Positions 31,079-63,845 of a DNA stretch of 64,000 nucleotides are shown here, piece after piece; positions within the stretch are counted from its first letter, which is position 1, and the number at the start of each line of letters is the position of its first letter. The translations under genes were made by a program, and so were the position numbers. The notes under the pieces were generated by a model. That model saw nothing but the letters and a program-made list of their open reading frames with translations. It did no database searches and was not told the DNA's origin. Source of the stretch: Lytechinus pictus (taxonomy: Eukaryota); assembly GCF_037042905.1 (NCBI RefSeq), contig NC_087250.1:20338001-20402000 (forward strand). The letters are read 5' to 3'.

Positions 31079-31126
31079 ATGGCTGAAGCAGTGGTGATGA
31101 AAACCGCGTCCGAAACGGAGTCGGAG
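31079..31126 (+). CDS. MULE-derived gene, candidate first coding exon 1a (MAEAVVMKTASETESE)
   Basis: AAGAAATGGCT start in a CpG-rich stretch; GAG|GTAATT donor, phase 0, matches the acceptor at 40202. Confidence 0.6.
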
Positions 31127-34100
31127 GTAATTTTTGAATGTGATGTCCTTGATGACCATGAAAAACTCTTAAGGGTGAGATATTAGAAGCTAAGCATAAC
31201 GAGGACAAATATGAATTTTGCGTTTGAACTTAAGAGCATGTTCAAAGTGATGAACTTCGGAAGTTCATTTTCATGAGCTGAGAGTGAGACTGAGAGGCCT
31301 GAGTTGATGCCAGGCAGGGGCAGGGTAGGGTCAGGGAGCTCGGGCCCGCGTCGCTGGCGCGGGTAGCCAGTAGTAGGGTATCTGGAGAAAAAAATTATTT
31401 TTCTTATTTCAACTTCAAGAAAATATCACATTTTCTTTGTGAATATGAAGAGAAATGGGAAAGAGTTCCATATGCACCCCCCACCAAAAATAACAAAAGT
31501 TTGTTGAGACTTCCGGTTCTTTCACTTCAGAATCAGATTTTTCTATCATTTTTTTACTGTTGCTTACCTTAAGTTCTTAACGTCCATGCGCAGTGAGTCG
31601 CCATCGGCAGTCTTCAACCTTCAATTTTGCAACCAAAAAAAAAAAAATTACCCAAAAAGGCCAAATCTTTGGATGAGATGAAAGTATCCACAAATCCTTT
31701 GAAATATATGATAAACTTTTCTCCTGAAATTGCTACAGTTTTTAGTAAAAACATCATGAATTACACACTTCCGGAACGGCGACACAATGATGGGTATATT
31801 TTGAGTCGCCGATTCGAAAAATCCAATACATTTACTACACAGACATATCGCGCATGCGCACACACACGCACCGATCGTACACAAAAGTGCATTGACTCAG
31901 CTGCGTTGTTGAAACCTCTCCGTGGGTTAAGATATACGTTGAGTCGCCAACCCCTCTTATTTTGATAACAATTGTCACCCCCACCTTCAAAATGAAATGA
32001 TCGTGAGCATATTTTTATAATCTATATTTTGATACCAAATATTGGTAACTTGATCGGGCAGTTTTGGAAACATCGATTGCTTAGTGTACGTGTGGGCGTC
32101 TCAAATCGTCGCCCGAGAAAAATGGCAGCTTAAATTCGCACCGTACGGACCAAGTTTGCAAGTCTGACTTTGACTGCGCTTAACTCCTTTGTCTTTTGCT
32201 GGATCTTTTAACCAAACGTTGCAGCATTTCAGGGAATTACTGAGGATTAATATCAGATGCCACAAGACACTTTTCAACATTGCAAAAGATTTCTAGAACC
32301 ATTGTAGTCAAGCAGTGACAGGTGAGTGGCGCAACAGTAAAAAAATTGCACATGGCGACTCACTGCGCATGGACGTTACTTAGTTGGGACTCGAACTCAC
32401 CTCGTTTGATCTGCAGTCAAGACCTTTCCCGCTATGCTAGCGAGAAGCGCTGATACCGGAAAGGGTATTTTTACGATTATCAGCAGATAGTTCAGCTAGT
32501 CTTGACTCGCAGACCCTTTACTGACTAAATAAACCTATGTCTATGGACAATAAGCCAGTTCACGGTTAGCTCATGATCAACTTTTCTCCAATGACCTTTG
32601 TGATTTTTCATTAGGATAAGCACTATCATTTTCAAATGTAGATGTTGCGTAAGCTTTACCGGTAGAGTATTCAAATTCTAAGAACAAATGGCATTGTATA
32701 GACCAGGTGACTAGAATAGTACATCAAAGATAAAGTTTAGAAATCTGTTTTATTGTCTGCCTTTGGCACATTTGAATATTGTTTAGGCTACTGTCAAATA
32801 CCAGTGATTATGAAGGCTCTATTTATTACCCTTCAGCTTGGATGTGACAAATATTTTGAAAGGAATACATGAATAATCATCAAATCACAAATGCCTATGT
32901 CAGTGAATTTGAAAGTCACCTTCATGGCTGTCTCCAATGACCTTTTTCTGCTCGTGCGCAGTTTACAACCGTGAACAGGCTTATTACACGCACAAGATCT
33001 CGCTCGAAATTTGACGGAATAAAGCCATATTTTGGTATATATTTCCACTTCCCCATCATGTATGTTCGATATTAGGGCTAGATATATTAATTCTGAACCT
33101 TCTCCATGTTTTTATTTTCAATTTTAGTGGGGGGTGCATATGGAACTCTTACCGAGAAATGACCTACAGACTGACAGAAATGTAACATTTTTGAAAAAAA
33201 ATCCAATTATTGGCCAATTATTGGCTGCAAAAAAGAAGAATGAAATTAGGTTAATTTTCAGCATTTCTCTGCCATAGACTGTGTAGTTAAGAAATGGACA
33301 CACACAAATCCAAATTTTTAGCTTCCGAGAGCTGTTATGAATTTATTATTAATGCCAAAAACTTGTCCATAAAGAGTCCAATAGGATTTTTTATGCTCTA
33401 TCTGATGGTATGATTTTTATAAAGATTTGGAAACCAGATCACAATGAAAAATTGCGACAAAGTGAAAAAAATTGTGCAAAACAGAAATTTCATTTTCCCA
33501 TAGAAAACGCATGGAGAAATGGCAATCTCAACACACACAAAAATAAGGGTTTGCAATTTATCTCTAAATCCTTATTTAAAATGATCATATAAACTTGTCC
33601 TTACTGTCAAAAGAAGCCCCTGAATTTTCTCTTTCAATATATGCCAAACACAAGTTAATAATCAATGCAGATCACATTTTTCTAGTAGCCTGAACTTCCC
33701 CGAAAAAAATGTGCCATATTTTTCCCTAAATCAGCCTGTTTTATGCTGACACTTTTCGGTGTGGCTTCAGACACCCTACCAGTAGTCTTGAGGATGCAAT
33801 GATGATGACTTTTAAAATAATGATATATACTTCTTCATCATTGACGTCTTGACACTCTTCCAGTAGGCGCAGAAGAGAAGCACCAAAACAAAGATGGATT
33901 TCCCTAGGATATCCATCTCTTAAGACATAAATGAATTCAAGTTTATGAATTTTATTGATTTCTACGCCTAAATGCGTAAGAAGGTTTTAAAAATTCTCAC
34001 TAGAAAAGTATAAAAAATTAAGGTTTCTTACCAGACTGATGTCGCGTAGACCCCTCGATCCACATGTAAACAACGCAAATACAATGGCGACGACCCTTGA

Positions 34101-37100
34101 ACCGCTTATGTATTACGTACCATTACGTACTTCCGATACGCAATGCCGTTTTGAATAACAATTTATAGATAAAAAGTATTATTTTACAAATATTAAAATT
34201 TTTTACGTAATAAAAAGTTGACATAATATTGCTAATTATTTATAATCACGTAAAATAATTTAATATTTGTAAAATAATATAATATGGACTGAAGTTAGCA
34301 ACCAAATCATGCGAACATGTGGCGAACAAACTGCCAGCATGCTGCAGGCGAATCTTTTGGTCGCATAACTTCAGTCTATATCAACATTACGGCGCACGGC
34401 GAATCCAAGCGATAGATCAGCGAAGTGATGTCTGAGGATTCGAACAACGACATCGAGATCAAAGCTGAAATACAGCCGTTCCCGATCGCGATATTTGGAA
34501 AAAAGGTGGGTATATTGACCTCGAAATGTGACTGAGAGACTTGTCATGACATTTGGGAACAAGTATTGGTGACGAGGTAAGCTGGTAATCGGCCGGTGCG
34601 AAACTGCATTAGCGCCGCGACTTTTACGACTGGTGATCATTTCTTCTGGTTGGCGATGGTTTTGCGCCTAAAATAGGTTCACCCCGGGGGGGCCACTTAC
34701 ATTGACGAGTGGATACAATGCACGACCAAAAAGACACGTAAAAAGGATGTCTTTTTCAAGATGGGGCACGTTATCTACGTAACGTAATAAGGGTGTCAAA
34801 AACACTGAAATAATGAAAAAAGGGTATCTATTTCGCTAGGAAAGCTACTTGTTTAGGGTCAAATTTGCGAGGGTATAAAAAATCGAGACTAATAAAGGAT
34901 GTACTTTTTGCCCCAGGAGTCAACTCTACGACTACGTGTTTAGAGTACGATTTGCGCGAGGTGTGGGAGGTGGGGCTGTACTAAACCCAATGATGTACCG
35001 TAAGGTCACTAGTATTCAACCCGTTTGGAGAGTTTCCTCAAATATATAGAAATATAGAATTTACCTGAATTTCAGACCCGTCTTATTTCCAAGAGCAAAT
35101 GCTGGTTATTCTTTTTCCGTTATTTTTTTCTTCAACCAGTTGACTGATAGGGACAGTGATTTTCCGTTTAAAAAAATTGCCTTTTCCGTTTCAGAAAATC
35201 TCAAATTCCGTTTCAGCATGTCAGAAAACGGAAATTCCGTTTCCCCATAGACTTTGTACACACGGAAAAGTGACAATTCCGTTTACACATTGAATAGCAA
35301 AATCACAACACGCATACTCGCACTGGTCAAAATTTGTATCTGCTACTGTACCAACAACACAATAAAATCCGTTCTAATCGGATCTATGCGGGTGCATAAC
35401 ATATTTTTACACACCCATTTTGCATGCATACATCCTCACCTTTCATATTATTAGCATTATTTCACGGTGAAATGATATTTCATCGATAATTTTGGGGTTT
35501 TTTGGACATCGTTATCATCAGTCAACGGCTATTGCCAATCCGCCATCTTGGATTTTAAGACCACGATATCGTGCTGTTACATCTTCAAACGTAGAGGGCA
35601 GCAACACACGACCGTGTAAGGAGTTGAACGATATGTGTGCATGTGAAGCCCAACACCCGGCTGGCTGGGTACGGGTACGGCGTACGGTGCGGGGTACAAT
35701 CGAGTGTGCTGATGTCAAGTGCAGTCACGATGTGTGAATGTGTGATAGTAGCGAAGTGAGATTGTGTTTTCTGGGTTTTTTGGGCCATTTAATATTCTCA
35801 TTTTGTTGTGATTTTGGAGTAATTTCTGTTGCTATTCTGTGTATTTTGAGGGAAAATACGTTTTCCGTGATTTTCCGTTTGAAATGCCACTTTCCGTTTC
35901 AAAAGGCCCTTTCCGTGAATTCCGTCCGTTTTCCGCGATCGCGGAAAATCACTGTCCCTAGACTGAGTGCGCGGGCGATCGAATTATACGGCGACTGATT
36001 TTGGTACTAGTATTCAACCCGTCGGCACTAGTATTCAACCTAGCGATGAAAGATGGCCCTGTCTCTCAATCTGCCCTTGTCCCATCCGACTATGGACTAG
36101 ACCATTTGAGATGAGACCAAACAGGGAATTAATCAAAGCCAGAGACTTACATAGATCTAGATCTAATTTAGCAATCTAAACCCTTTTGAGATTTGCTATC
36201 AATCCTCACTAGGTTGAATACTAGTACCATTCAGTGCAAAAGGCCATCGCCGCATAATTCGATCCTCCGCGCATATAGTCGACAGATTGACAAAGAAAAT
36301 ATCGACAACAGATTACCCTGGAAATAACAAAGGTATGAAATTAAGATAAATTCCCTATTTCTAAATATTTTGGGGAATATGTCAAAATCTTTGAATTATG
36401 CCAGGTTGAATACTAGTACCCATACAGTAGGTAAAGGTAAAACCGACGTCCGCGACATAACATTGAAATATCGCTGTACTTGTTTAGGGGTTCAAATCAG
36501 GGAATACTTGCCTATAGTATCATTTTGTTTCCAATACTTGTTAAGGGTAGGGTTTCACACGCCAATACTTGTTAAGGGGTGCATTTTCAGAATAAGGAAA
36601 ATACGTGTTTAGGGTGCTTTTTGAGATCTCATGGTCGCGCATGGTATCCACTCGTGAATGGAAGTGGCCCCCCCGGGGGTTCACCAGTCGTTCTTAGAGC
36701 TAGAGTCACTCTTAACTTACAGACAGCTTAATGAAACGGCATGCACCCTGGAGCCTCTAACGTTAGACTAGAGAGTAATTCATTTTATAGCGTATGCTTA
36801 CTCTCCACGAAGCCAGGGATTATTCTATTGCATTCATCTACACATATTCGCCAAAAAATCTCAAACTTTCGCCCCTGAGATTTCTTCTTTCCTACTAAAA
36901 GATCTAGCCCTACATCCTGTAAATGGGATACAACTTCATTTCGGACATTTCTACGCTATCGATTTCATGTTTAAACAAGAATTAATCAAAAAAATATCAT
37001 GAAAAGACGGGAGAGACTCCCCCAATGTTTACGCCGCCATCTTGTTTCCTATTTTTCTTCCCCAACGTTACTGACGCGTGCGTCCGTAACTGCTAATGTC

Positions 37101-40100
37101 GAGCCCTACTTATTATATTCAGTTAAAATTCTTATCTGTTGTGATAATACCGATGACGGATACAAACCAAATATTTGTACAGCCTTCGATCGCAGGTTTG
37201 GTGAAATTAATTATGATCCCGTCAGTGACGCGAATGCGACGATTTTCCTTCAGGGCCGGGGTCTGCCCCTCTGGAAAATCGTGTTCCATGGTGTCACTTG
37301 GGGAACCATATTTATAACCATCTCCTCTGGCACCTGGCTGCTGTACATATTTGTTCTATGCACTGTAGCTTGTTTCCTTCAAATTGGTCCGAACCCGGCT
37401 CGTAAATCTTATCAGAATAAGAACTCAACCCGGAAAGGCTCGGCATCCCGGACCAGCTAAAATTAATTCATGTCCATGCAAAAATGCAATGTTTTGACCT
37501 ACTTGACTCTTATTTGTGACCGACATCACCTGGCCTTGTTCTCAAAAGACGATACAAACCCCCAAAATATTTCATTCACTGTTTATATTATCCAGTAGTA
37601 ATGCAGAGAGAGGATTGAGATCCAACTAGGCCAACTCACAATCCCTCACATGCTTATCATCAGTGCAGCTAGCGGTCAACAGAACGAGTCTGTGCACCAC
37701 TAGTGATTATGTGCTTTGCTTTTTGTGTGATGTCTGAAATCGAGAGGCAGATTACAAACCACATCGTTTATTATGTTATCATTCTCTTGACCCAATTTTC
37801 AAGCAGGCTCTCACAGAGATCGTTTCTGTCTACCATACATAAAGGTTTTTTTTTGGGGGGGTGGAGGTGGCAGAAAGAGTTAATTTCAATCGCCATATTT
37901 GCTTTGAAGCCATAGAATATTTTACTCAAACTATTTTTTGTGCATGATTTATTTTTATCTGTCTTATTCTAGCTTTCAGCTACCGGTAATAATATTTTTT
38001 GTGTGATAGGCCTATTGATCAAGAAGAATAATCCGAAAAAAAACTTACTCTCTTAGAAAAAGGTGTTTTCCCCTTTAAGTAGAAAAAATGAATTAAAATA
38101 TATTTTTTATTTCATATTAAAATTTGACAATCAAAGTATCGGACCGATATCATCCTACCTCCATATCATCCATTTAGTCATCTGGGCAATTCCATAGGTT
38201 GGTGGACATGAGCTTAAAAATTCAAATTCAATATATAATGTAGCCCATCTGACCTACATTTTAATTGTGTTTGCCTTACTTAAATACTTATTGCTGGTTC
38301 TTTAATTGATGTTGATTGCTTGAGGCAAGAAATGGAATGCATTTGTTTTACATTTTTTGATTAACACAGCCCAAGCCAGATCTCGTACAGTTTAGTGAAT
38401 ACATTACCAACATACTGACCACTAAGTAAAAAGAGAGGAGAAAACTTATTCAGAATGTTACCTTTAAACATAAACTGGTGTCTGGAATCCTACTCATATT
38501 ATTACAGAAACAGAAACATGAATCTTACACACATTATTGAAATTTTTAGTGACATTTATGTTGTTGACCATACATGGACAAAATGTAATGTGAGTAACCA
38601 TAATGTGAGTAACCACTTTATCTGCACCCCTAGTAAAAACCATGTGTTCTTTATTTTTTTAATTATATACAAAGTTTGTCTCCCTAATATACTTCTTTGA
38701 AATGGATATCATATAAGCAACTTTCATAAAAGCCTTGTTTGAGGACACTTTTCACTTATGTCGACTTTTCATTTTATGCATGTCCAAATCATGTAACATG
38801 AGTAACCGACACATTTCAAAGACTTCCCAGGAGCATAATAAAATTTCCCAAGTTTTGTTTTTATACAAAGGATAGTCAGACTGCGTTCTTTGTTGTGATA
38901 AAGAGATTTTTAGTTCCTATCAATAATAATGGACTTACAGCTTTAAGTATGAGTCAAGGGCCCGTATTCTGATGTCAGGTTTAACTTAGACTCAGGTTTA
39001 AAGTTGTGGTTTACAGTATGGGAAGCCAAAAGTATCAATTTTTTATTAAGTTGTACGTTTCTTATGTTTACTGTGCTCTTTCCTGATTCATCGATGGTGA
39101 AGACAATCATCTATATATACTTCCTAGACAATTATGAATGATTTGAGAGCCAAATGAGCTGAAGTATGATATCTCTACTGTTAGTGATTTATGTAACAAT
39201 TGGCTGTCCATACTTAAACCACAACTTTAAACCTGAGTTTAAGTTAAACACGACTTCAGAATACGGGCCAAGGTGTCTCCAAATGTAACGTGGGTAACCG
39301 TGGAATAGCCCATCTCATCTCTTCATCTCACACATTTTTTTTTGCTCTTGCCCCCCCCCCTTCTCTCTTTCTCTCTCCCTCTAACTGCATCCTCCTCTTG
39401 ATCATCCGTCCCAGTCCACCCTCTTCGATGTCTCCTTTAATTGGGAATTAAAATGTTTTGCACCCAGCTGAGCTATTATTTTCGGATCACCGACTTTGTG
39501 GAATATGTCAACACTAAGGTTTTTTTTTTTTTTTTGGGGGGGGGGACTTCTATGGTTAGCAGAAAAAATATAATATAAAAGATATCTCAATAAACCCGGA
39601 CAGATTATTTTATAAAAAAGAGAAAAATATTCTGCATGTCATCACAGTCGTATCAAAAGGAAAACTTCTTGATTTATGACCATGCCTAATGGACCGACTG
39701 GCCTTTACCTGTAAACAATATGGAATTCTCACCCAGTGAAACCATTACTCTCAGCCAATCACATGACCAGTCACATGATATCACATGCGCAGCTGCACTG
39801 TATGCATGTGCGGCCTGAGCCGGCTAACTATAGGTTATCTCGTCTTGATCTCTCACACACAAGGCCATGACTCGGGAGGTCCGATCATATACATCAACCA
39901 AAATCAATATGGGGAAAGAATGAAAATAAGGTAGGGATGCTTGACCTTTGACCTGTCCCCTCGACCATCACACTACTGGTGGATGGATTGCTTGTTAAAA
40001 ACAGTTTCATGACTTATATCGCGGTGAAAAATGACACCTCAAATATTATCAAAGGCCATCCGGGTTTATTACCGAGTTGGATTCAAAGTGAAGCCCGACC

Positions 40101-43100
40101 CGTAAAGTTCCGAGCCGGACAATGCCAACTTGGCAGGATCCAGTCCGGTAAACAATCCAAGCTACAGGACTAATTTGTTCAATATGATCTTCCCCTTGCA
40201 GAACTACCTACCCAATGGCTATCACTACCGAGTGTGGCTCTTCGAAGCATCGGAAGATAATCCAGAGAATTTCAAGGCCATCATATGGATGAAGGTTTCA
40301 ACGCAGGAGGAGGCCGAGGCATGGTTCAAGTCTTTGATGGGAAAATCACCCGTCACATGGAGGGTCAGAAAGACGTACCCAAATTTCCAAAAAGTTCCGG
40401 AGTTCAGGAGGAGAAATGCATTCAGGGTATGACTTTTAAAAAATTTAATTGCGGTGTGGTACCTCTCTACAGCAGCCAACTACCTATCAATAGTGAACAC
40501 TTGCTGACTCTCATGGAGACATATTCTATGAATGAGAGCCTGTTTATACATGTAGCAGCCAACACCAAAGCCATATTTGGGTGATCATGTGAAATATTAA
40601 GAGTCAAAAAGAACTGCTGGGCAATTTCATGGAACACATCTTTTTTAGCTAATTTATAAAACAGTGAAATCTGTATTCTATGGCCCGTATTCTGAAGTCG
40701 GGTTTAACTTAGATCATGGTCTAACTCAGTGCTAAAATTATGGCAAGCCGAAATGTCAAAACTTTTAATGACATTGTTTATTTCTTATGATTATTGTGCT
40801 CTTTCTTAACTCGTGAATGGTGAAGAAAGCTATCTTATTTATCCTCTCGAAACAGTTTAGAATTATTTGAGAGAAAGTGAGCTGATATACATGTATTGAA
40901 GTAACACTGTTATAGATTTATGCCACTATTGGCTATCCATAGTTAAACCACAATATTAAACCCGACTTCAGAATACGGACCATATGAGTCGTCTGAGGGG
41001 AAACACAAAGGTGGCATTTATTATTGACCGGTGGCTGCTGTAGACAGGATACACCACAGGGAGTGGAGATGGTGCACATTATGCGTGGAACACCAATGAT
41101 GTAATAATTACATTCAATCAAGCACTTGGACTCGCAAAGTATGAAGCGCTCTATCATTGTATTGTGCTTCCATGGTAATCTGTAAATATACATACAGTGA
41201 TCTTCATTCTGCTTTGATAGATAACCGCGCAAATTATATTTCATGAGGAATTCAGTTTACCTGTACATTATACAAATATACCAGGCTTTGAGTAAGTATA
41301 GCGGGAATTATCATCCGAGGTTGGACTGGCATTAGTATTTTTTCCCGACAAAGCCCAGAGGGAAAAATAGTGATTTTGCCAGTACAACCGAGGATGATTA
41401 ATTCCCTCAATACTTTCGAAATAAAAGCCTGGTATATTTGTTTTATATCCTACTTTGATAAGTTAGAGCAATAGATCTTGATAAGCTAGTTCTTGTACTC
41501 TTAGTTCATCCTTTTTTTAATCTGAACCAATCCAGCCACGCTGACTGACCTACTTTTTCTGAAGTGCTTTATACCTACGCGCTCAGTGCGCGGAACGTGT
41601 ATTAGTGATTGCGCCATCATGATCTGTGACGTCAATGATGGAATAGTCGACTATTCCATCATTGACATCACAGAATAGCACATTTTCTTCGGTGGGCGTT
41701 CAATTTTCGACATCATCGCAAAATAATGAGAATATGTCTGATCACATGATACTGTTTAAACCAATCAGCATACAGGATTTAATTTATGTAGGATGTAAAA
41801 AAAACTATTTAAAAAACATGTAAGAAGCAAAGTAGAGTGCAGTCACTGCACTGTAAATTAAAATGGAGGTATTCCTATCATTACATTTATCTTTATACAG
41901 GTGGATTATGGATGCCATCATAATACTCGTCCAGCCAAAAAGGAACAGGTTCGAAAGTCCTCAAAGCACACTTCGTGTGAGGCCCGGGTCTACCTGGTCG
42001 TGAAGCGGCAAAGGGACAAGAGCGGTAGATGGAAGTAAGTATTATCATAAAGAGCCTTCGCTTTGCAAGACAGACGCTTCTATGAAAATATAACTAACGA
42101 TTGAACCGTCTGCATTTGCATAATGTATGGGGAGCCTTCCTGGGGGCCGTTTCATAAAGCTGTTCGTAAGTTAAGAGCGACTTTAAGAACGACTGGTGAT
42201 CCTTTCTTACGCACTAAACCGTCGCCAATGAATATACCATTTACCACAAGAAATGATCACCAGTCGTTCTTAAAGTCGCTCTTAACTTACGAACAGATAT
42301 ATGAAACACCTTCCAGGTATTTTTTTTTCAATTTGCTGCACTCAACCCAGGTGAGGTGAATGGGTCCCCGGCGGGATTAAATCCCTGCATGCACTGAGCA
42401 CTGGTGATGATTAGCTCGAGCTAAAGCCGGGGTAATGATTGCAATTTTTTAGTATCCACAGGTAAAAAGCACTGTATAACCCAGCTATTATTATTATTGA
42501 TTTTCAGGGGCTACTTTTCACAACTTTCTGCCTAATTCTGCAAAATTGGATAAGCATTACTTTTGTGTATGAGTATTCTGACTCTAATACACATTTGAAC
42601 TCTGTCTTGATCTCTACTCAGTAACTAGGCATGACCATTGGCGGCGGAAGCCAACAATTTTAGGGGGGACCACCACACAATTTTTTGACAAGCAAAAAAA
42701 AAAAAGGTTAGCAACCACAAATTATAGGGGGGACGCAGGAAAAAAATTGACAAGCAAAAAAAAAAAAAATTACCAACAAAAAATTTATGGGGGGATAGTC
42801 CCCCCCCCCCCCACCTCAAATTTAGGGGGGGGGGGACACGTCCCCCCGCTTCCGCCGCCTATGGGCATGACTGCTTGGGTTGGAGTCACAATCACAACTG
42901 ACTGTATTCTCCATACTAAACCACAATATATCATACTCTGTACATAGTTACATGTACATAATATTCTGAGGAGGGCATAGTGATAAGGGAAGTATAAACA
43001 GATGGGCCCGTATTCTGAACTCAGGTTTAACTTAGACCATTGTCTAACTCTGTTAAAATTATGGGAAGCCAAAAGTGTCAAAATTTTTATTAAGTTGTAT

Positions 43101-46100
43101 GTTTCTTATATTTACTGTGCTCTTTCCTGATTCTTCAATGGTGAAGACAATCATCTATTTATACTTCCTAGACAATTATGAATGATTTGAGAGTCAAATG
43201 AGCTGAAATATGATATCTCTACCGTTAGTGATTTATGTAACAATTGGCTATCCATATTTAAACCACAACTTTAAACCTGAGTTTCAGTTAAACCTGACTT
43301 CTGAATATGGGCCATGGAGTTGAACAAGGGGTTGTTCATGGTGGGGGTGATACAACATGGTCAATATTACACAACTGGTCTGGGGGTGGAGACATGATGA
43401 AAGAGAGCTTATGAACAGTGATGGAAACAATAGTAAGCCATGAGTTAATAGCATAGAATGAGAGGATGGATTGATGAAGAATAAAATGTGTGTGTGAACG
43501 CAATAGTTACCATTACAATGAATGGGGATTTCTATGGCTCTTTTTTTTTCAGTTCAATTCAACTTTATTCAATTCCAATATCTAAAACATTTTACAACAC
43601 ATCATGCAATTCAAGATGAAATAAAGTACAGTACTGTAATTCAATAGTATACATATTGTCATAGAAAGAGTATTGAAATTGGGTATAGCTCTATAAAAAA
43701 AGCCTAAAGGTCTTGTCAAGACAGCTCCCTTAATAACATAAGATTTGATCAATTAATAAAAGCGGAGAACAAATTCAGTGAATATTCGGTAAGTAAAAAT
43801 GAATTGCGTCTTGCACCAAGTCAAACCCCAGAACAAACATACATGTAAAGGGTAGGAGAGAATGAAAAGCAGAGGGGGGGACTGAGAGTTGAAAGAAGAC
43901 AAAAATCATTTGAAATTCAACGAGAGTCACGTTTGATCAAATATAGCTTTACATTGTGCTTAAATCTGTTATAAAATGAAATTGAGGTTATACATGTAGG
44001 GAGTGAATTCCAGATTGAAGGAGCATGATGCCTACATGAATAAAAAGCAAATTCTGTATTCACATTCCATCTGTGGTATTGATTCCTATTTCTAGTATTA
44101 TAAGTATGAATTAAACTGTTCTTTACAATTGACCAGCTTTGGGATAGCAAAAAAAAAGAGATTTTAAAGAGCAATTATGAATGTTATTCTGGTGTTTGAG
44201 CATTTAGCGGGCTAAATCACATCCAGCCCCTGTATAATTTGTTTTCCCTGGAGCCCTCGGTCCTCCACATCTGGTTTTCAGAATAAGCTGATTTTTTGCT
44301 GAAAACAGCAACAGGACCGTATATTTTACATCAACACAAGTTTGTTTTTGTTGTTTCCCATGAAATGTTGATATCAAAGGCTTTTCCATGAGCACTTTTT
44401 TGTAGTAGTATTATTGACACCAGAATAATGTTCATAATTGCTCTTTAAAATCATTTTTTTGTTGTTGCTATCCCAAAGCCGGTCAATAGATCCCCATATC
44501 CGTTGTGGCTACCTAACGAAATGCACCATATACAACATTCATAACCACTCCATCCGGAGCGCCGAGGCAATGCGAAGACGTGATGTGTCGGAAGACACCA
44601 GGGCCAGGCTCCTGCAGCTCTATGAGGATGGCTACAAACCTATTGGAGCTCTTGAAGCCCTCAAGAGAAGTCTCCAGGAAGATTATGGGTCAGACTACGC
44701 AGAGAAGTCGGCGGACAGGTCGCTTTGTCCGGACATCCAATACTGCTATAGGTAGGATTATCAGGTTATTTTTAAATTTGGTGTTGGTGTTTTTACAAGC
44801 ATAATTAATTATACGTCAAGGATGTAGTCGAGGCAACACTTTTTAGGCCTTGGCCTTGGCCTCTGCCAGAGTAACGAGTACAAAATCTATGGAAGAAGGC
44901 TGTCTCTAGCTGAATTGTGACTCGGAATTGCTGGCCTTCTTCATTATGACAGGCTAGTTTACCAGCATTCATCAAGGGTCTGATGTTGTAAGAGAGTTGC
45001 AGTAGCAATTAATATCTACAGAAATCCTTTTCAAGTGATTGGCTGGTAGTAAATATAAGAGCATTTATATTGCAGTTTAGTAATGTAATCTACTGCACAT
45101 AACGTTTTGGGGTATTAAGAATTCCTGGTGCGTGATTATGGGTTTAACAAATGTTTTGTTTCTTTTCAGGTTGTACTACTCCATTTACAAGCCAGACTGC
45201 CATCAAAGGATACGAAAAAGTCTTCTAGATGCGATAAAATCAAAGCTAGAACTCAATGACGTAAACAACAACCTTCACAAGATGGCCACCACGAAAGAAG
45301 GTCACACCGTTATCGCAATTTGCTCGGGTTCCATGAGGCGGACACATGAATTCTGGCCAACCAGCAAGGAGCTATGCTATCTTGATACGAGGGTAGGTCT
45401 TGAGAGACAGAACTGGAAGGTCACTTTCCTCCTGACCCCGAGTCCCGTAGGAGAACTTCCCCTTGGGATTCTTCTTGCATCCTCAGGCACTCCAGAGACT
45501 CTCACCCTAGGTCTCCAGCTGCTGCACAAGCTCTTGCCCCAGTTCTCGTTCTTCGAGCGTGGGCACAGTGGACCAAGCACGGTGATAACCAGAGACGACG
45601 CTGACGAGATGCTGGCCCTGCACGAAGTCTACCCAATGGCAGAACTGCTCATAAATCCCCATGCTGTCGTCCGAACCGCAAAGGACTGGCTGTGGGATCC
45701 TGGAAACAGGATCGGGAAGGTTGATCGGGTAGAGCTTCTGCGACACCTCAAGGCTGTCGTTGATGCGAGGACACCCGACGAGCTGAACTTCCTGTATGAC
45801 CTCGCGAAGCAGGATGCAGAGAATCGTGCGTACAAGGAGTACGTTGATTATCTGGGAGAGCTTTATGAGCGAAGGGAGATGTGGTCTGTGGCACTCCATA
45901 GAATTCCTGCTTTGTTTGAAAACCAAGTCTTACCATCAGTCAAGGTCAGTCAATAACTGTGTTTCTCTTTGATACATATCAACAGGTGTGTAGAGGTGTT
46001 GTGGCTCCAGATATTTCTCAGGACTTTGAACCACAAGGTCATTTGTATGAACCCCACCACAGCTCTCGCATCCTTTGGCAAGGCGTTTGTCCATATTTGC

Positions 46101-49100
46101 CTCTTTCCATCCTGGGTCCCGTTGCATAAAAGTTACTATGATAACTTTGCCATCGAATTGTAACTTCCATGGAATCCTAGATTTTGGTTGGTTGTTGAGC
46201 ATCGTTACCATGGTAGTTTACATTGGATGGCAAAGGTAAACACCCCCCTCAACATGTTTTGTCACTACGCCGTCGCACAAATTTTTTTGACTGCGCCGCT
46301 CACTGAATTTTTACTTTCAAGTCTTTCGCATCTTTTGAGACCCCGGGTACGCGGTTCCAAAATTATGCAAAGTTTTGTAAGTGCATGTCAGACCAGAAAT
46401 TGCTCAAAAACGTGATTCCGTGTACAACGCAAATTGTGTTTTTCAACCAAACATCATAAATGTATGATTATTTTTACTATTGTTGGTTTAACTGGATTAA
46501 TTTTATGCTATTTATGATCGCAAAAGGGTCCTTGACAAAGTTCATCGGGAAAAACAAAGAAATACATAAGAATTTAAAAAACAATAAAATACATAAGAAA
46601 TTAATTATATTTTTGCTATTGTTTTGTAGATATTGTTAATGTAATAATTGATACTCCCACCAAAAATTAGCATTCTACTAGCTATATAAATTGAGTTAAA
46701 GGCAAATACATGTACCTACACAAAAAAACAAATTTATGGTAAATTTCATATGCTTATTTGCATAATTAATTAATAAAAATATTTTTTGAAAATTTTACTA
46801 TACACTCTTGTAGTTTGAATCCGGCCTACGCGCTTGCAAATTTTTGCAGCGATTGCGCAATCAGCGGCCGAGATCTGAGGGGGGGGGGGGCAAATTGACC
46901 ACCCCCCCCCCCCCCCCCCCCCAGTATATACTGGTCTGAAATAGCTCAGTTAAGGGTTATTTCGAACAATAAAATGTGGATTTTCATGTTGATGAATTTT
47001 ATTGTTTGTTTTAGTTTTTGTTGATCAGTTTTGACAAGTTACACATCTTTTAAAAGCTTAGGATGTTCTTTTTCAAGCTCATGAAAACTATCAAATTTCG
47101 TTTTTGGGTGAATTATTGTTGCTTTAAAGAGAAATGCCAGTAGTTGCAGTAAACACTGATTTCATGAGAAAGTCTGTAAACCAGGCTTAATTGTCAGTAT
47201 ATCATCGAGGATCTAGATCTGGTACAGTTACATAAACTGAACTTTGTGAAATCTTGAAATTTATGCTGAAAAATGTTCACACTGAAGATCACCAACACAG
47301 ATAAGCGCACGTGGGACAGTGTATTATTATTGCCTTGAATGTCGGCCCGACGCTTGACCCGAATCCTGTGCTTATTTGCTGATTTCTCAGCAATTACACA
47401 ATTTCTTCCAGAATTCTTTGGCACATATGTTTTATTTATACAAACAGACACTTTGGTGGTCATTTCATTGGATTCTGTACGAACTCATTTTGATATCGTT
47501 ACCACAACTAGCATTTACCTTTAAATATGGCTTGTCACTGTTTTAAATCAAGAAGGCAAATAACAAATTCTCTTGATTTTTCTTGAATACACAGGTGCCA
47601 TTGGATAAGATGCTGAAGAAGGCCAAGGGGTATTCAGTTCTGATGCTTATTGATGACTTGCTTCATAATTTATGTTCTTACTACGTGCGAAAGCTGATCG
47701 ATGCTGGGAATAATCGACTGGAACGAGTGATCTTTCCATGGAACCCTAAGGAGTCCCAAGGCACAGAAACAATTGTGAATAAGGTGATTTGATGCCTTTA
47801 AATTTCTTATTCTGACCAGGGGCGGTATTATGAGAACCATTTTATCTCAGATGAAATAGAATATTTTATCTTCGTTAAAATCAGTGAGATACGCTTAAAA
47901 TCTTTCCTAATTGGTATTCTGAGAACAATTTTATCTTCCTTTTATCTCTGTAAAAAAAAAAGACACCTATTTTTTTAATCAATATCCATTTAGAAATGCG
48001 CTTTTATAGCTCTCTCATATCACTCAACCAATGGAAATCCATTTCACCAGGAGGTGTGGCAAAGGAGTGAGATTGTGTCAATTTATTGACTTAAAATACG
48101 CTTGCACTATCTGAGAGATAAAATGTCATCTCAGAATACCAGTTTCATTTTAAGAGATAAGATGAAATATTTTAAAGATAAAATGACATCTATTCAGAAG
48201 ACTGCCCCTGGGCCCTGTAACACAGATGATAGTGATTAATCACTTATTTGAAAGAACACTAGTTCCCAATTAATCGCTAAACTTTGTTCTATGGGGCCCT
48301 GGATCCAGTTGGGGAGGAAGACTTTCGAGTAATTAAGGTACCCTTCTCTATACCTAGGTAGCCTCTCCAACTCTCATTCAGGTCTGTGGTATCAGATTTG
48401 TAATGTCATTGAATAACAATAATCCATGCACTCTGGCACGGTCACATGAATTTCATCTAGGGAGTCTTACAAAGATTTAAGTATGAGTTGCACTTAAAGG
48501 ACAAGTCCACCCTAACAAAAAGTTGATTTGAATAAAAAGAGAAAAATCCAACAAGCATAACACTGGAAATTTCATCAAAATCGGATGTAAAATAGGAAAG
48601 TTATGTTATTTTAAAGTTTTGCTTCATTTCACAAAACAGTTATATGCACATCCTGGTGGGTATACAAATGAGGAGACTGATGACGTCATCCACTCACTAT
48701 CTCTTTTGTATTTTGTTATATGAAATAGGGAATATTCTATTTTTCTCCTCATTGTCGAGTGAAACAACAATTAATTCCTCCCTGAACATATGGAATAAGC
48801 ATTGTTTTATACTATATGATTCTATCAAGTTGGCCCTTATTGTCAAATCTATAAAATATTGTATAATTCAAACAATAAAAAACAAAAGAAATAGTGAGGG
48901 ACATCATCGACTTTCTCATTTGAGTTGTGCATATCACTGTTTTGTGAAAAATAAGCAAAACTTTAAAGTGTTGTAACTTCCTTATTTTACATCCGATTTT
49001 GATGAAATTTTCAGCGTTTTTTATGTTTCTCTATTTATTCAAATTAACATTTTTCTGGGGTGGACTTGACCTTTAAATGCCGACGCATACATGATATGCA

Positions 49101-51805
49101 ACGAGCAATCTTATTGATTATTATACAGTGGTGGGCATCCTTTTGGCATGATCTTACCATTGTGGTCATGCCTTATACCGCATGCAACTAGGCATTTAAA
49201 AGTGACCCTAAGTCATGCTTAAATCACCCCCCCCCCTGAAATTGCTAGAGCAATTACAATATGAATCCTTTTTAATCGATAATGTTGACGTATCTTACAT
49301 TCGTTAGCTACCTCTTGAAAAATTTGGATCTTACCCCTTTGGGAAACAAAACTGAACCTTTCGCTTCATTGAACTGAATGGAACAATTGTGTGCATTTTC
49401 GAAAGTTATGAAAGGGTTAACAAGTAAACCACATTTATTGATTTGCAGGTGAATGAGGTTGACTATGAAATCCTTGTTAAATCAGATGGCCAAACCACCA
49501 CCTTCAATGTTAACACGGAACAGGGTCTTTGCGGCTGCCATGCTGATATAGCACGCATCCCCTGCCGACACCAGATGGCAGTGTACAAGAAGTTTGGGAA
49601 GAATTGCGGAACCTTCTTCCCTGCAGAGCTCAGGTCGTTGTTCACCAAGATCGCTACAGGTGGGTATAGCAACTCTGTGAGGATTCATAAATGACTCCTT
49701 GAGATGTCATAAGTGACTTCTCAAGGTCTTGTAAGTGACTCCCTTAGGGTTCATGACAGTGACTCCTGTAGGACTTGTCAGGAAATGTTTGAGGATTCAT
49801 AGGTGTTACCTAGAGGATTCATACGTGACTCCTTGAGGTTTTGTAAGTGACTCTGTGATGATTCCTAAGTGACTCTTTTAGGGTTCAAAAGTGACTTTGA
49901 GGATTCACAGGTGTCTCATTTAGGGTTCATAAGTGTCTCCTTAGAATTCATGATGGATCTTTTGTTTACACATTTGATGGCTCTCTGATGATAGCAACAT
50001 CTGCACATGCGTCAACTCTCAGATTTTGCTTGTCCTGCATTTGAACCAAATTGTTAGATAAAAAAGATGAGATGTGGAACACACGGGTTTGGATTGATAA
50101 ATGAAATGACCCAGTAATATGAAGAGATGTCGCAAGAAGTATTTTCAATCAATTGCAAATTTCTGTTGCAAATTTTTGATTAATAAAGCAATTGTAACTA
50201 TAGCATATCAATGTTTGCTCCTTGGTGCAAGAAAAAGCAGACCGGCATTCAAGTGCAAATTTGCAATTAATTGACAGACTGACAATTGATTTCGGGACAA
50301 AAATCGATTTGCAATTGATTGCAAGTTGCAACACAATCTTAGAGTAAGTGTACAGTGTACATTACAACAGCTCTAACCTAGAGTCGGGTTTCATCTCAGC
50401 CATGGCGTAATTTTAGCAAGCAAGAAATTGATCCCCAATGTACTGCACTCGACCCGGATGATGTTAATGTGTACTGGCAGGAAGAAGTTCCTCCAAAATC
50501 TGTGAGCACTGGAGTTGTTAGCTTAATAGTGGAGCAGGAATAATAAAGGAGCGCCTTGAGTACCTAACAAAGTGGATTATGAGCAATATAAAAACCTGAT
50601 ATCATTATTAGTAGTAGTAGTATTATTATTACTACAAGTAGTTAGTTGCACTCATACATTGTTGTATTTAAATACATTTTCCTGTTCTCTTACACATAAT
50701 TTTTAAAATGTTATTTATAGCCGAATTATAGTTGTTCAATGTAAATTTTATGTATGTGTTTTATTCTTGAATGTCACCGTACAAGTCCAGGTCGGGGTGG
50801 AAATCCTGCGGGCTACAGTAATTCGATTTACTTTTTCCCTTCCCAGGCAACCTGGACTTGTACTGTATATATCCTTGTTTCTTCCCTCTCTGTACTCATG
50901 TATTTACCTTGTAACTTCATTTTGTTGAAATGCCGAATAAAATAGTAATAATGATAATTATAATAGTAGCAGGTAGTAGTAGTATTATCATCTTCATCAT
51001 TATAATCTTCATCATCATTATTATTGTTCTTGAAGACGGACAGTCAACCTGCCCGAAACGTCGAGTAACCTCTCTTCACTTCATCCTGCTACTACTCAAA
51101 CCATCGCTACTCAAGCCATATTCAGCTCATCTCGTCTGGTTTACAGTCCTTTTCAGGACTTCGCTCACTTTCAAGAAAAGAATACTTCTAATTTCCTCTT
51201 TTCATCCTTTCTCGTCTTTCCATTTCAATCTTTCTGCCTGTATATCCTCCCCTTCTTCATATTACACGTTATTATTGTTCTTGTTTATAACAGGTAAAGA
51301 GAGTCAGGATGACATATGGTACCAGCCCTTGTCTGTCAGCAAGGAAATCCAGATCACAGCGGATGGCAAGGAGGTCATTCTTGCTGACGATATCCAAGTG
51401 GAAGAGGCCCTGATAGAACTCTCAAGCGCCATTGAAGAGCAAGTAGCATTAGGGATGATAGAAGGCAACGACGATAGTGATGATGAAGATGTGGAGGAGA
51501 CGCAGAGGTATGAACCACATGAAGCGCATCAACAGCTCCAGAAGGTATTTGCTGATTTGGAGAAGAGGCTGTTGGACGATCCTGTGGCCTTTGAAGGACC
51601 TGTCCTGGACTTTGCCAAGAACTACGTGGAGGCCTCTGAACGTGGCCAGCTGTTGTCAGCATTGAATTCCTTCGGCCAGGATGGAAGTGCCAGCTGGAAG
51701 ATTCAAAGGATGGATGAAGATAATGCTCCAGACACCTCTCGGTTGCACGCTGTGGCTGAGTCAGCGGAAGTCCACCTTAGAAAGAGGGCCGTGCATCCAT
51801 CATGA
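31079..51805 (+). CDS. MULE/Mutator transposase-derived SWIM zinc-finger protein, ~788 aa; join(31079-31126,40202-40426,41901-42034,44479-44751,45170-45944,47595-47783,49449-49659,51294-51805)
   Basis: Exon phases chain 0,0,2,2,0,0,1 into one open frame. N-terminal YGCHH...TSCEA...NIHNH (WRKY/GCM1/FAR1-like zinc DNA-binding module); MULE core YLD...LPLGILL...GPSTVITRD...INPH; SWIM finger CGC-x8-CRH; acidic C-terminal exon. The first exon is the least certain part. Confidence 0.8.
31374..33778. mobile_element. Three-level nested DNA transposon stack (31374-33778 > 31458-33153 > 31581-32375)
   Basis: Outer: TAGGGTATCTGGAG/CTTCAGACACCCTA with CCAGTAG direct flanks. Middle: GG(T/A)AAGAGTTCCATATGCACCCCCCAC TIRs with 8-bp TSD GAGAAATG. 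Inner: CGTCCATGCGCAGTGAGTCGCCAT TIRs at TTAA/TTAC. Confidence 0.85.
34428..34505 (+). CDS. MULE-derived gene, candidate alternative first coding exon 1b (MSEDSNNDIEIKAEIQPFPIAIFGKK)
   Basis: ATG in a CpG-rich patch, 26 codons, AAG|GTGGGT donor, phase 0. Confidence 0.5.
34683..36677. mobile_element. Nested stack: CCCGGG-ended element > TA-flanked element 34998-36427 > TAGGG-ended element 35148-35960, all inside a split hairpin MITE
   Basis: Concentric TIR pairs with direct flanks GGTTCAC, TA and GACTGA respectively. Confidence 0.8.
40202..40426 (+). CDS. MULE-derived gene, exon 2
   Basis: TTGCAG acceptor, NYLPNGYHYRVW...TWRVRKTYP...NAFR, AGG|GTATGA donor; lies inside ORF 40130-40432. Confidence 0.88.
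41901..42034 (+). CDS. MULE-derived gene, exon 3 (first two zinc ligands)
   Basis: TACAG acceptor, VDYGCHHNTR...KHTSCEARVYLVVKR, AA|GTAAGT donor (phase 2). Confidence 0.88.
42636..42863. mobile_element. hAT-like MITE
   Basis: CATTGGCGGCGGAAGC...GCTTCCGCCGCCTATG; exact 8-bp TSD GGCATGAC. Confidence 0.88.
43553..44127 (-). mobile_element. 5'-truncated LINE (L2/CR1-like) 3' end with a (TTGAA)-type tail
   Basis: Minus-strand ORF HTYNTRN...APSIWNSLP..I......FK..VK.YL, then 3' UTR, AATAAA and TTGAA repeats. Confidence 0.75.
44128..44487. mobile_element. MITE with ~68-bp TIRs overlapping the start of exon 4 of the MULE-derived gene
   Basis: 44128-44195 is the reverse complement of 44417-44487 (ATTGACCAGCTTTGGGATAGCAA... 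/ ...TTGCTATCCCAAAGCCGGTCAAT). Confidence 0.85.
44479..44751 (+). CDS. MULE-derived gene, exon 4 (HNH zinc ligands)
   Basis: RSIDPHI...NIHNHSI...ADRSLCPDIQYCYR; AG|GTAGGA donor. The only nearby in-frame acceptor is AAG at 44476-44478, inside a MITE terminal repeat. Confidence 0.8.
45170..45944 (+). CDS. MULE-derived gene, exon 5 (degenerate DDE transposase core)
   Basis: TTTTCAG acceptor; most of ORF 45132-45956; AAG|GTCAGT donor. Confidence 0.92.
47128..47520. mobile_element. ~390-bp TTAA-flanked element (Kolobok-like)
   Basis: Near-identical copy at 53423-53817; more diverged copy at ~62846-63240. Confidence 0.85.
47595..47783 (+). CDS. MULE-derived gene, exon 6
   Basis: CACAG acceptor, VPLDKMLKK...YYVRKLIDAGNNR...VNK, AAG|GTGATT donor. 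Confidence 0.88.
49449..49659 (+). CDS. MULE-derived gene, exon 7 (SWIM zinc finger)
   Basis: TTGCAG acceptor; FNVNTEQGLCGCHADIARIPCRHQMAV fits CxC...CxH; G|GTGGGT donor (phase 1). Confidence 0.92.
49672..49952 (+). repeat. Degenerate ~22-bp minisatellite (GAGGATTCATAAGTGACTCCTT-like)
   Basis: About a dozen diverged tandem units starting right after the SWIM exon donor. Confidence 0.75.
51024..51070 (+). ncRNA. Hammerhead-ribozyme-like motif from a Penelope-like retroelement remnant
   Basis: TTGAAGA-C-GGACAG-TCAAC-CTGCCC-GAAAC-GTC, with a possible 6-bp stem I (TTGTTC/GAGTAA). Confidence 0.5.
51294..51805 (+). CDS. MULE-derived gene, last coding exon (acidic)
   Basis: AACAG acceptor in phase 1; 3' part of ORF 50930-51805, ending in TGA. 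Confidence 0.88.
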
Positions 51806-56746: not shown

Positions 56747-56845
56747 TTCGATGTAGACGTTAATTTATTGATAACTGTCGAGCGCGAGCGCAGATAGACG
56801 TCGTGAAAAAAAAGCTCAAATTGTAACACCAGTGTTGAAGGAAAG

Positions 56846-62400: not shown

Positions 62401-63845
62401 TGGAGTGATTGCCAGCCTTTCTAAAGCTGCATACTGTCAAAATGGCCATCAAAATTCTAAAGTAAGTTAACCTGCTATGCTGGCTCTGATATCAACATTA
62501 ACAATTTTTTTTTTCATTTCATTTTCTCAGCTACTATTACTTGAACACAGTAGGCTAAGTTCAGCTAGCGAGATGAAGACGGCCCTTGTTTACCTGACCT
62601 GTATCTCATACGGCTATGTATGGTGTGAAGGAGAAGATGGCATTCCAGACGTAAGTTAGGGGAAAAAAGAAGAAATATGTCGTCGATTTGCTGGCAGACG
62701 AACAATAGGTTGCGTGTGCGCGTGGATGTGTGAGTGCTGAATATTTCATTGCTGTGCAGCTGTTAAAAGGGCGTTAGCTCAAATGTACTACACAATGCAA
62801 ATTGTAAAAGTGCATGCGACTAAAAACAATGTATTTGAGAGTTGAAGCTAAATGAACGTAGTTGCAGTAAAACACTAATTTCGTGAGAAAGTCTGTAAAA
62901 CCAAGGTTAAGTATGACTATATCATAGTGGATCTAGATCTGGTACAGTTACATAAATTGAACTTTGTGAAATCATAAAATCTAAGCTGAAATACAATCAC
63001 TCTGAAGATCGCCAACACAGATAGGCACACGTGGGACAGTTTATTATTATTGCTGGAATAAAGACCCGACGGAAGTGACCGAATCCGCGCTTATTTTGCT
63101 TATTTCTCAGCAATTACACAATTTCTTCCAGAATCCTTTGGCACATATTTTTTATTCATACAAACAGACACTTGGGTGGTCATGATATTAGATTCTGTAA
63201 AAAGTCATTTTGAGATCGTTACCAGAACTGGAATTTACCTTTAATGCAATGCGAATTGTATGGTTCGTGGAGGAGTTGATACCCTTTGATGCCAATTTAA
63301 TACCATTTTGATGATCAAAAACAGTTTTTTGTGCATCGGTAGGACTAGTGAGCATGCGGTAACTATGGAAACTAGTCTAAACCCACTTGGCTGCGCCTCT
63401 TGGGTTAAACAGTTCCATAGCTACCTTATGCTCACAAAATTAACCTACTGACGCACTCACACCTGTTCATAATTTGTATAATAATGTTGACTTTAGAAAA
63501 GCTGTATAAAAGCTTGAATAAACATCAAATTTCTGAATGGGTTTTTCTTCCAACGAAAACAGGTTTTTACCCTCATGTCTTGAAAATTCCTAATTGTTGC
63601 CACTTTTTGGATCAGAGGCACAATGGTCTTGACTCCTCTATATAAGGTTTATGACATGTCAACAATTACCAATCCTCAAACTCCTGACTTGTTCCCTCTC
63701 CCAAATGACAGGTTTTACCCTCGTGTCTTGCTATACCCTATGCTGCTATAGCAGGGAAGCTTCAGGTTCTTCCTTCAATTAGTCAGTATAGCTTCATCCT
63801 TCTTAACTGGAGACTCAAGAACCCCAATGGAAAGGTGGAATTAGA
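56846..63845 (+). CDS. IDO: Indoleamine 2,3-dioxygenase family heme protein (IDO-like), partial; join(56846-56950,61686-61781,62531-62650,63712-63845), continues beyond the window
   Basis: [35 protein letters not shown] | [32 protein letters not shown] | LLLLEHSRL...[19 protein letters not shown] | [40 protein letters not shown]. These match the IDO motifs LP.fy..W, i...YVW, vLP..lAvP and lNW. Exon sizes of 96 and 120 nt match human IDO1 exons 2 and 3 as I recall them. Confidence 0.92.
57400..59530 (+). repeat. Large compound (TCTA)n/(TC)n/(TA)n microsatellite region in IDO intron 1
   Basis: Directly visible; explains the low-complexity ORFs at 58213-59668. Confidence 0.92.
61686..61781 (+). 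CDS. IDO: IDO-like, exon 2 (96 nt)
   Basis: TAAG acceptor, AAG|GTAATG donor. Confidence 0.92.
62531..62650 (+). CDS. IDO: IDO-like, exon 3 (120 nt)
   Basis: CTCAG acceptor, YGYVW motif, GAC|GTAAGT donor. Confidence 0.93.
63712..63845 (+). CDS. IDO: IDO-like, exon 4 (134 nt)
   Basis: GACAG acceptor, VLP..LAIPY...LNW, GA|GTAAGA donor. Confidence 0.92.

What the first reader, a model, noticed from the sequence alone, without database searches (positions are those of the whole stretch)
31079..51805. Apparently domesticated, catalytically dead MULE transposase gene with intact DNA-binding and SWIM zinc modules
Seen: 8 phase-compatible exons over ~20 kb form one open ~788-aa frame with no stops, while the introns are full of transposon insertions, and I see no TIR/TSD pair around the gene. 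Established: MULE transposases use D...D...CxxH...E, and domesticated MULEs became transcription factors (plant FAR1/FHY3, MUSTANG). Motif comparison from memory, not a computed alignment: the first D is kept (YLD, 45384); the (T)D position reads T-R (45591); CxxH reads INPH (45651-45662); the TNNxxE glutamate position reads L (45930). The C...C...HNH module and the SWIM finger are complete. Inference: a host gene, possibly an uncharacterised transcription or chromatin regulator, or a repressor of related transposons.
Basis: partly seen in the sequence, partly recalled or inferred. Interest (0 to 1): 0.75.

Follow-up and report, generated by a model that had tools for sequence, protein, structure and literature searches.

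The report
Sea urchin tamed Mutator transposase gene
This is a real, spliced, single-copy sea urchin gene descended from the cutting enzyme of a Mutator-type jumping gene; it has lost the residues needed to cut DNA but kept its zinc fingers in three urchin species, so it likely now serves the host, most likely as a DNA-binding gene regulator, a kind of reuse already known from plants and other animals.

Summary
Confirmed, with corrections. The window is Lytechinus pictus. RNA reads support splicing.

L. variegatus (95%) and S. purpuratus (66%) orthologs share all four changes; none of the 120 does. The N-terminal C-C-H-H finger and SWIM finger are complete. The gene is single-copy, lacks TIR/TSD, and sits beside IDO in L. 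variegatus too.

The introns are not evidence of taming: young relatives in this genome (TIRs, a 9-bp TSD, 99% identical copies) share six of seven intron positions.

Domestication about 0.95. Likely job: FHY3/FAR1-like DNA-binding regulator (0.6), untested. No paper found on the gene. New member of a known kind; dead genes from this clade recur (Diadema independently).

The parts
31079..31174 (+).
   Evidence: Spliced frames equal P0001 and P0011; N-terminus aligns with S. purpuratus. Its junction was outside the stretch laid with reads.
34428..34505 (+). Alternative first coding exon of RefSeq isoform X2 (798 aa), inside intron 1
   Evidence: Translates to the N-terminus of P0013 and ends at GT; not checked with reads.
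40202..40426 (+). Exon 2, start of the N-terminal domain
   Evidence: Junction to exon 3 in 31/54/20 reads of three RNA runs.
41901..42034 (+). Exon 3, C112 (41913) and C133 (41976) of the WRKY-GCM1-type zinc finger
   Evidence: weak Pfam ZSWIM3_N hit E 0.036, under cut-off.
44479..44751 (+). Exon 4, H173/H175 (44540, 44546) and helical, HTH-like region
   Evidence: weak HTH_23 hit E 0.013, under cut-off.
45170..45944 (+). Exon 5, RNase H-like core with helical insertion: D315 (45384) kept, D to R384 (45591), CxxH to N405..A408 (45654-45665), W481 (45882) kept, E to L497 (45930)
   Evidence: fold matches ISCth4 transposase best.
45945..47594 (+). Intron 5, absent from the mobile relatives examined; apparently shared with the Strongylocentrotus ortholog
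   Evidence: Frames of C3, C9, C5, C13, C16 and C20 copies run through this point; P0016 and P0017 leave the alignment at this point (inferred).
47595..47783 (+). Exon 6, end of the catalytic-fold helix region
   Evidence: Junction to exon 7 in 30/41/16 reads.
49449..49659 (+). Exon 7, SWIM finger C592-x-C594-x8-C603-x-H605 (49530-49571)
   Evidence: Pfam SWIM E 0.008, under cut-off; atlas SWIM clusters 0.92-0.93.
51294..51805 (+). Exon 8, acidic low-confidence stretch, C-terminal helices, stop codon
   Evidence: Junction from exon 7 in 30/27/27 reads; model helices 709-760.
61644..62656 (+). Two exons of the downstream IDO2-like gene (synteny marker, not part of the gene)

Best explanation
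This spliced, single-copy gene encodes a Mutator-family transposase descendant that has lost two of three catalytic acids and the CxxH motif but kept both zinc fingers in three sea urchins; it is likely a domesticated host gene whose protein most likely binds specific DNA sites and regulates transcription. Shown: gene structure, expression, copy number, residue losses, orthologs, fold. Inferred: a MULE copy was immobilised in an ancestor of Lytechinus and Strongylocentrotus (split 30-50 million years ago), changed fast on the stem, then came under ordinary constraint. Inferred by analogy with FHY3/FAR1: the N-terminal C-C-H-H finger plus the helical region reads DNA, the dead RNase H core and helical insertion act as a folded scaffold for protein contacts, and the SWIM finger with the acidic stretch recruits transcription or chromatin partners. 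Domestication alone I put at about 0.95; the confidence given is for the DNA-binding regulator mechanism.
For: Catalysis lost: among 120 library relatives with a near-complete core, D1 is D in 108, D2 in 93, C in 100, H in 103, E in 101; 77 have all five; the set R/N/A/L is found only in the three urchin proteins. In Muta1, changing any of D, D, E, H or W to alanine abolished or nearly abolished transposition (PMC5225508, passages). Loss is selective: of positions conserved in at least 75% of relatives, 22 of 26 are kept in residues 33-243 but 21 of 44 in the core 276-545 (Fisher p 0.002), and the kept core positions are largely G, P and L. The dead core is still as conserved between genera (99/130) as the finger (54/73) and SWIM region (56/76), against 6/15 to 38/67 in linkers. 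Single copy: 1 of 34 and 1 of 15 matches at 100%, next best 36% and 51%. Orthologs form a 100/100 clade in species order on a stem of 1.09. L. pictus-L. variegatus identity 767/804 against 429/455 for the neighbouring IDO enzyme. Under neutral substitution the frame stayed open in 30 of 300 runs at the divergence matching 95% protein identity and 0 of 300 at that matching 65%. L. variegatus IDO2-like and the ortholog have consecutive accessions on a contig of the same length. Stranded junction reads in 3 of 3 raw RNA runs. Fold: ISCth4 transposase first, Z 12.7, rmsd 4.7, 240 aligned. N-terminus: atlas neighbours carry ZSWIM3_N, FAR1, GCM, ALS2CR8 and AFT families (0.83-0.89, leads). FHY3/FAR1 division of labour: PMC13306707, passages.
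Against: No binding, localisation or knock-out data. P0001 has no Pfam hit at E up to 1, and the exon-level hits are all under cut-off. The N-terminal fold match to Aft2 is only Z 5.8 (rmsd 2.7, 73 aligned, rank 44), within the range of common matches; model pTM is 0.44 and residues 491-503 around the E site are under pLDDT 50. D315 and an acid at 385 are kept in all three species. The SWIM region keeps only 7 of 13 family-conserved positions. dN/dS was not obtained. Synteny rests on accession order and was not shown for S. purpuratus (the IDO search returned 1 cluster). The three raw RNA runs are one study, tissue unknown, about 6% of each read. Conservation of a zinc finger does not tell a transcription factor from a chromatin-complex subunit.
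Confidence: 0.6

Rival explanations
1. Host gene, but working as a structural or adaptor subunit of a chromatin or DNA-processing complex rather than as a sequence-specific factor, like nuclease-dead transposase partners recalled from other systems (Harbinger-derived plant proteins, PiggyMac-like proteins; from memory and search listings only).
For: The dead core and C-terminal helices are as conserved between genera (99/130, 44/60) as the finger (54/73); long stem with many changes in the core.
Against: The N-terminal region keeps 22 of 26 family-conserved positions, more than any other region, as expected if ancestral DNA contact is retained.
Confidence: 0.2
2. Host-kept repressor of related MULEs: it binds their ends or poisons their transposase.
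For: Young relatives exist in the same genome: 14 exact TIR-pattern matches, copies 99% identical, a 9-bp TSD. Full transposase architecture is retained.
Against: Nearest mobile families are only 30-36% identical in the core and 42-51% in exon 4; their ends differ between families after the first five bases; those families evidently moved recently; the host gene changes slowly, not as in an arms race.
Confidence: 0.12
3. Domesticated but still a nuclease or recombinase using substitute acidic residues.
For: D315 is kept and position 385 stays acidic (D, D, E) in the three species; W481 is kept.
Against: The second D is replaced by arginine, H408 and E497 are lost, and no acid is conserved in all three species between 480 and 519; the acid at 385 is also usual in intact relatives, so it is not a compensation.
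Confidence: 0.05
4. A decaying transposon copy that is transcribed but has no function.
For: Six of seven intron positions come from the mobile family, and mobile copies also gather insertions in their introns, so splicing and nested repeats alone prove nothing.
Against: Open frame with the same dead residues in three species across 30-50 million years; 0 of 300 neutral runs stayed open at comparable divergence; conserved like its neighbour enzyme.
Confidence: 0.03

Closest known systems
Arabidopsis FHY3/FAR1 and FRS genes (PMC13306707 passages; PMC4948706 passages)
   Same: MULE origin; N-terminal zinc finger, central transposase-derived domain without catalysis, C-terminal SWIM; kept as host genes; separate exaptation events within one superfamily.
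   Different: No FAR1 Pfam hit; animal lineage, independent origin; DNA binding and activation are shown for FHY3/FAR1 and untested here.
Active MULE transposases: Aedes Muta1 (PMC5225508 passages), IS256-family ISCth4 (PMC7780238 passages; PDB 6xg8), and the TIR/TSD-bearing L. pictus elements on C3, C9 and C16
   Same: RNase H fold with helical insertion, first D, W, zinc fingers, six intron positions (against C9).
   Different: Second D, C, H and E lost; single copy; no TIR or TSD; one extra intron.
WRKY-GCM1 'insert' family of MULE-linked DNA-binding domains (PMC1702500, section 10 and passages)
   Same: Core unit of N-terminal finger, transposase domain and C-terminal SWIM.
   Different: That section mentions other sea urchin transposases with two classic zinc fingers, not this gene; the fold assignment here is a weak match.
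Animal MULE-like host proteins: 'FHY3' of metazoans (PMC10027918 passages), vertebrate ZSWIM1/ZSWIM3, fish si:dkey-75a21.2-type proteins
   Same: Animal genes with MULE-type core and often SWIM; the fish proteins are 28-35% identical over most of the length.
   Different: PMC10027918 names no echinoderm in its main text or 5 supplements; fish proteins form separate branches with different substitutions; orthology to ZSWIM3 not shown.

Membership tests
Active MULE/Mutator transposase | RNase H-like core with alpha-helical insertion | tested here: met
   ISCth4 top in Foldseek (E 9e-5) and VIA (Z 12.7, rmsd 4.7, 240 aligned); 30-36% identity to relatives, two of which pass the Pfam MULE cut-off.
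Active MULE/Mutator transposase | D-D-E triad | tested here: not met
   D315, R384, L497.
Active MULE/Mutator transposase | CxxH motif | tested here: not met
   N405-P-H-A408; S. purpuratus N-P-Q-A.
Active MULE/Mutator transposase | Conserved W before the E helix | tested here: met
   W481; 117 of 120 relatives.
Active MULE/Mutator transposase | TIRs with 8-10 bp TSD, several similar copies | tested here: not met
   0 of 5 enclosing inverted pairs with a TSD; one copy; the same kind of check finds TIR and 9-bp TSD on the C9 relative.
Domesticated transposase gene | Single copy without transposon ends | tested here: met
   S. purpuratus has two models 98.9% identical, probably alleles (inference).
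Domesticated transposase gene | Orthologs in species order | tested here: met
   (L. pictus, L. variegatus), S. purpuratus; 100/100.
Domesticated transposase gene | Conserved neighbourhood | tested here: met
   L. variegatus only, by consecutive accessions XP_041466563/564 and equal contig length; not shown for S. purpuratus.
Domesticated transposase gene | Spliced transcript | tested here: met
   4 junctions in 3 raw RNA runs; one contig across exons 2-8.
Domesticated transposase gene | dN/dS below 1 | tested here: inconclusive
   No ortholog DNA in hand; proxies only; the 2 coding differences among the 40 rows shown are both synonymous.
FHY3/FAR1-type transcription factor | N-terminal WRKY-GCM1-type zinc finger | tested here: inconclusive
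   C-C-H-H ligands intact; atlas leads 0.83-0.89; Aft2 Z 5.8.
FHY3/FAR1-type transcription factor | C-terminal SWIM finger | tested here: met
   CxC-x8-CxH complete; Pfam E 0.008 under cut-off; atlas 0.93 with 189 shared features.
FHY3/FAR1-type transcription factor | Pfam FAR1 domain (PF03101) | tested here: not met
   No hit at E up to 1; works-like claim only, not membership.
FHY3/FAR1-type transcription factor | Sequence-specific DNA binding and transcriptional effect | not testable with these tools
   Needs bench work.
ZSWIM1/ZSWIM3 family | ZSWIM3_N plus ZSWIM1-3 RNaseH-like domains, orthology to vertebrate genes | tested here: inconclusive
   ZSWIM3_N E 0.036 on exon 3 only; no vertebrate ZSWIM3 was placed in the trees.

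The most novel reading that the evidence does not exclude
One clade of intron-bearing animal MULEs is a recurrent source of lineage-specific transcription factors: camarodont urchins (this gene), Diadema, a second L. pictus gene on C21, a starfish and several fish each appear to have killed the active site by a different route while keeping both zinc fingers. This gene would then be an unrecognised, young, sequence-specific regulator wired into sea urchin development, an animal counterpart of FHY3/FAR1 that standard Pfam-based factor lists miss.
Probability: 0.3. Interest if true: 0.68.

Novelty: new member of a known kind. Interest (0 to 1): 0.42.

Why it matters
Sea urchins are the model for developmental gene networks, and this protein is invisible to Pfam, so factor catalogues built on domain hits would miss it. 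It gives a clean, datable domestication with its mobile relatives still present in the same genome, in L. pictus, where knock-outs are practical (recalled). The principle itself, a dead transposase kept as a likely regulator, is well known, so the surprise is moderate.

Tried and rejected
Pfam on the whole protein: no family. Homodimer prediction of residues 270-765: no verdict, score 0.31 against a mark of 0.32, no evidence either way. Run search: no RNA holder listed; raw runs were laid instead. dN/dS: not obtained. Deeper orthologs: none among the best 150 of 1,372 library hits; after the gene's own cluster identity drops to 35% or less over full length, apart from a 191-aa C-terminal piece at 62% (P0079); relatives over 50% identity are hidden inside the cluster, so the range is not settled. 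Diadema dead gene as ortholog: rejected, AU p 0.005. Introns as evidence of domestication: rejected. Relic of the C3/C9 TIR in the window: none of 3 motifs found. TIRs for the C5 and C13 relatives: none within the 20 kb fetched. E-helix exon of the C21 gene: not found. The Engraulis row in the tree was mis-cut and carries no information; one search kept 101 of 158 rows; one search used 20 chosen rows. IDO ortholog in S. purpuratus: not returned. Literature: 0 papers for five gene ids and si:dkey-75a21.2; searches listed nothing on this gene; subscription journals and Echinobase were not searched; PMC3093488 was not held. Earlier notes by sequence and by words: none.
Full report
Identity and gene model. 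A search with exon 5 returned a 100% match, RefSeq 'uncharacterized protein LOC129263695' of Lytechinus pictus, on a contig of the same length as the window's. A third isoform starts at 34428. In three raw, stranded RNA runs of one study the junctions of exons 2-3, 3-4, 6-7 and 7-8 carry 16 to 54 reads each, all in one direction; the other two junctions inside the laid stretch were not among the 15 rows shown (137 hidden), but one contig of run X1 runs through exons 2 to 8 with matching lengths. Exon 1 lay outside the stretch.

What it descends from. The protein has no Pfam hit, yet exon 5 finds 33 other matches in the genome, the best at 30-36%. Those relatives read D...TD...CxxH...TNNxxE; two of three tested pass the Pfam MULE cut-off and the third is 0.3 bits under. 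They are real transposons: the C3 and C9 copies are 99% identical over about 9.4 kb, a 31-base end pattern has 14 exact matches against 0 for the reversed control, and the C9 element has inverted ends with a perfect 9-bp target duplication, the MULE hallmark (PMC6446971, table passages). The predicted fold matches the IS256-family transposase ISCth4 best in both searches.

The active site. The pairwise alignment to the C5 relative has no gap from residue 280 to 488. It puts D on D315, the second D on R384, CxxH on N405-P-H-A408 and, after a 3-residue deletion, E on L497. Among 120 library relatives with a near-complete core, 77 keep D, D, C, H and E, and none shows R at the second D, A at H or L at E; the three urchin proteins share all of these. 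In Muta1 each of D, D, E, H and W is needed (PMC5225508, passages). Catalytic death is therefore well supported, though not assayed. D315, W481 and an acid at 385 remain, but no third acid is conserved near the E site.

Selection. [quoted passage not shown] The neighbouring IDO enzyme is 94.3% identical between the two Lytechinus species, so this gene is as constrained as an ordinary enzyme. A substitution-only neutral simulation left the frame open in 30 of 300 runs at 95% protein identity and 0 of 300 at 65%. In L. variegatus the ortholog and IDO2-like carry consecutive accessions on the same-length contig; that is indirect, and nothing was shown for S. purpuratus or for the upstream membrane-protein genes. 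dN/dS remains open. In trees the three form one clade in species order on a long stem.

Which parts were kept. Family-conserved positions are kept 22 of 26 times in residues 33-243, 21 of 44 in the core and 7 of 13 in the SWIM region, where all four ligands survive. Core losses include the catalytic residues and several basic or aromatic ones; structural G, P and L stay. After these changes the core is as conserved between genera as the finger, so it still folds and does something. The N-terminal domain's nearest atlas clusters carry ZSWIM3_N, FAR1, GCM, ALS2CR8 and AFT, members or likely members of the WRKY-GCM1 group (PMC1702500, abstract, section 10 and passages; ALS2CR8 recalled); the match to the Aft2-DNA structure is weak, Z 5.8.

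A correction on introns. The C9 element has splice sites at the positions of introns 2, 4, 6 and 7, one codon off for intron 3, and the same acceptor for intron 1 (read, not checked with RNA), and the mobile copies carry nested insertions too. Only intron 5 is new; two genomic ORFs in the S. purpuratus cluster break at the same point, which suggests it was gained once, after or during domestication.

Mechanism. Shown: an expressed, single-copy, constrained gene with a disabled MULE active site and intact zinc ligands. Inferred, by analogy with FHY3/FAR1 where the N-terminal finger binds DNA, the central domain supports protein contacts and the SWIM end activates transcription (PMC13306707, passages): a sequence-specific nuclear regulator, 0.6. 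Rivals: complex subunit 0.2, repressor of related MULEs 0.12, residual nuclease 0.05, relic 0.03.

Novelty. No paper names the gene ids, and the metazoan survey of transposon-derived factors has no echinoderm entry in text or supplements (PMC10027918). The kind is known: MULE-derived genes in plants (PMC4948706, passages), 'FHY3' in animals, ZSWIM1/3 (PMC10236294, passages; their MULE link rests on Pfam family names and recall). It also looks common: 43 of 120 relatives lack at least one of the five residues, usually with zinc ligands intact (some may be decayed elements or misalignments); named ones include Diadema, Asterias, lamprey and mantis shrimp proteins. The Diadema gene is a separate event. 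Earlier unchecked notes list tamed hAT, Merlin and Crypton genes in this genome. Verdict: real, new member of a known kind, interest 0.42.

Noticed in passing
L011 / L023-L024 (G000:C21 about 2.313-2.326 Mb) and L010 (C21 about 13.24 Mb): A second spliced, degenerate MULE-like gene (first and second D kept, CxxH reads S-P-Y-H, SWIM intact, long extensions, E-helix exon not found). Present twice on C21 in 30-kb inverted blocks about 90-95% identical, flanks included, so probably two haplotypes or a segmental duplication. No protein above 38% identity among those held.
   Followed up: partly
L040-L041 (G000:C9 25.590-25.619 Mb) and L027-L028 (C3 64.502-64.516 Mb): Young intron-bearing MULE family with about 65-bp TIRs and a 9-bp TSD; the C9 copy spans 29 kb and has a stop codon in its exon 2; insertion flanks are GC-rich in most of 12 ends seen.
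   Followed up: partly
G000:C8 9.179-9.203 Mb (L036-L038), with L035: The same MULE end with the same flank recurs three times at about 11.9-kb spacing, plus once 164 kb away: a tandem array carrying the element end.
   Followed up: no
G000:C11 33.152-33.157 Mb (L013-L020): A 211-bp piece of a MULE transposase gene amplified into a tandem array of about 20 copies.
   Followed up: no
P0049, P0193, P0194: Diadema antillarum and D. setosum share an independently degenerate MULE gene (91% identical), sister to an intact transposase.
   Followed up: partly
P0008, P0043: Catfish proteins of this family; P0008 has lost all three acids and carries an N-terminal THAP domain, which in another catfish annotation is a separate gene model, so the fusion is unsure.
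   Followed up: no
window 1471-1722 (-) and 18949-22354 (+): Two divergently oriented genes for similar small membrane proteins; only the left exon gave a CD20/MS4A hit (E 0.0012, under cut-off).
   Followed up: partly
window 56760-57276 and 59741-60075: Two related GC-richer stretches in opposite orientation between the gene and IDO, around a long simple-repeat tract; one holds an ATG frame that may be IDO's first exon.
   Followed up: no
window 42334-42365 and 50393-50413: Short intronic pieces of a highly transcribed repeat: over 1,000 reads per run join them through other sequence, which points to a SINE-like RNA from elsewhere.
   Followed up: no
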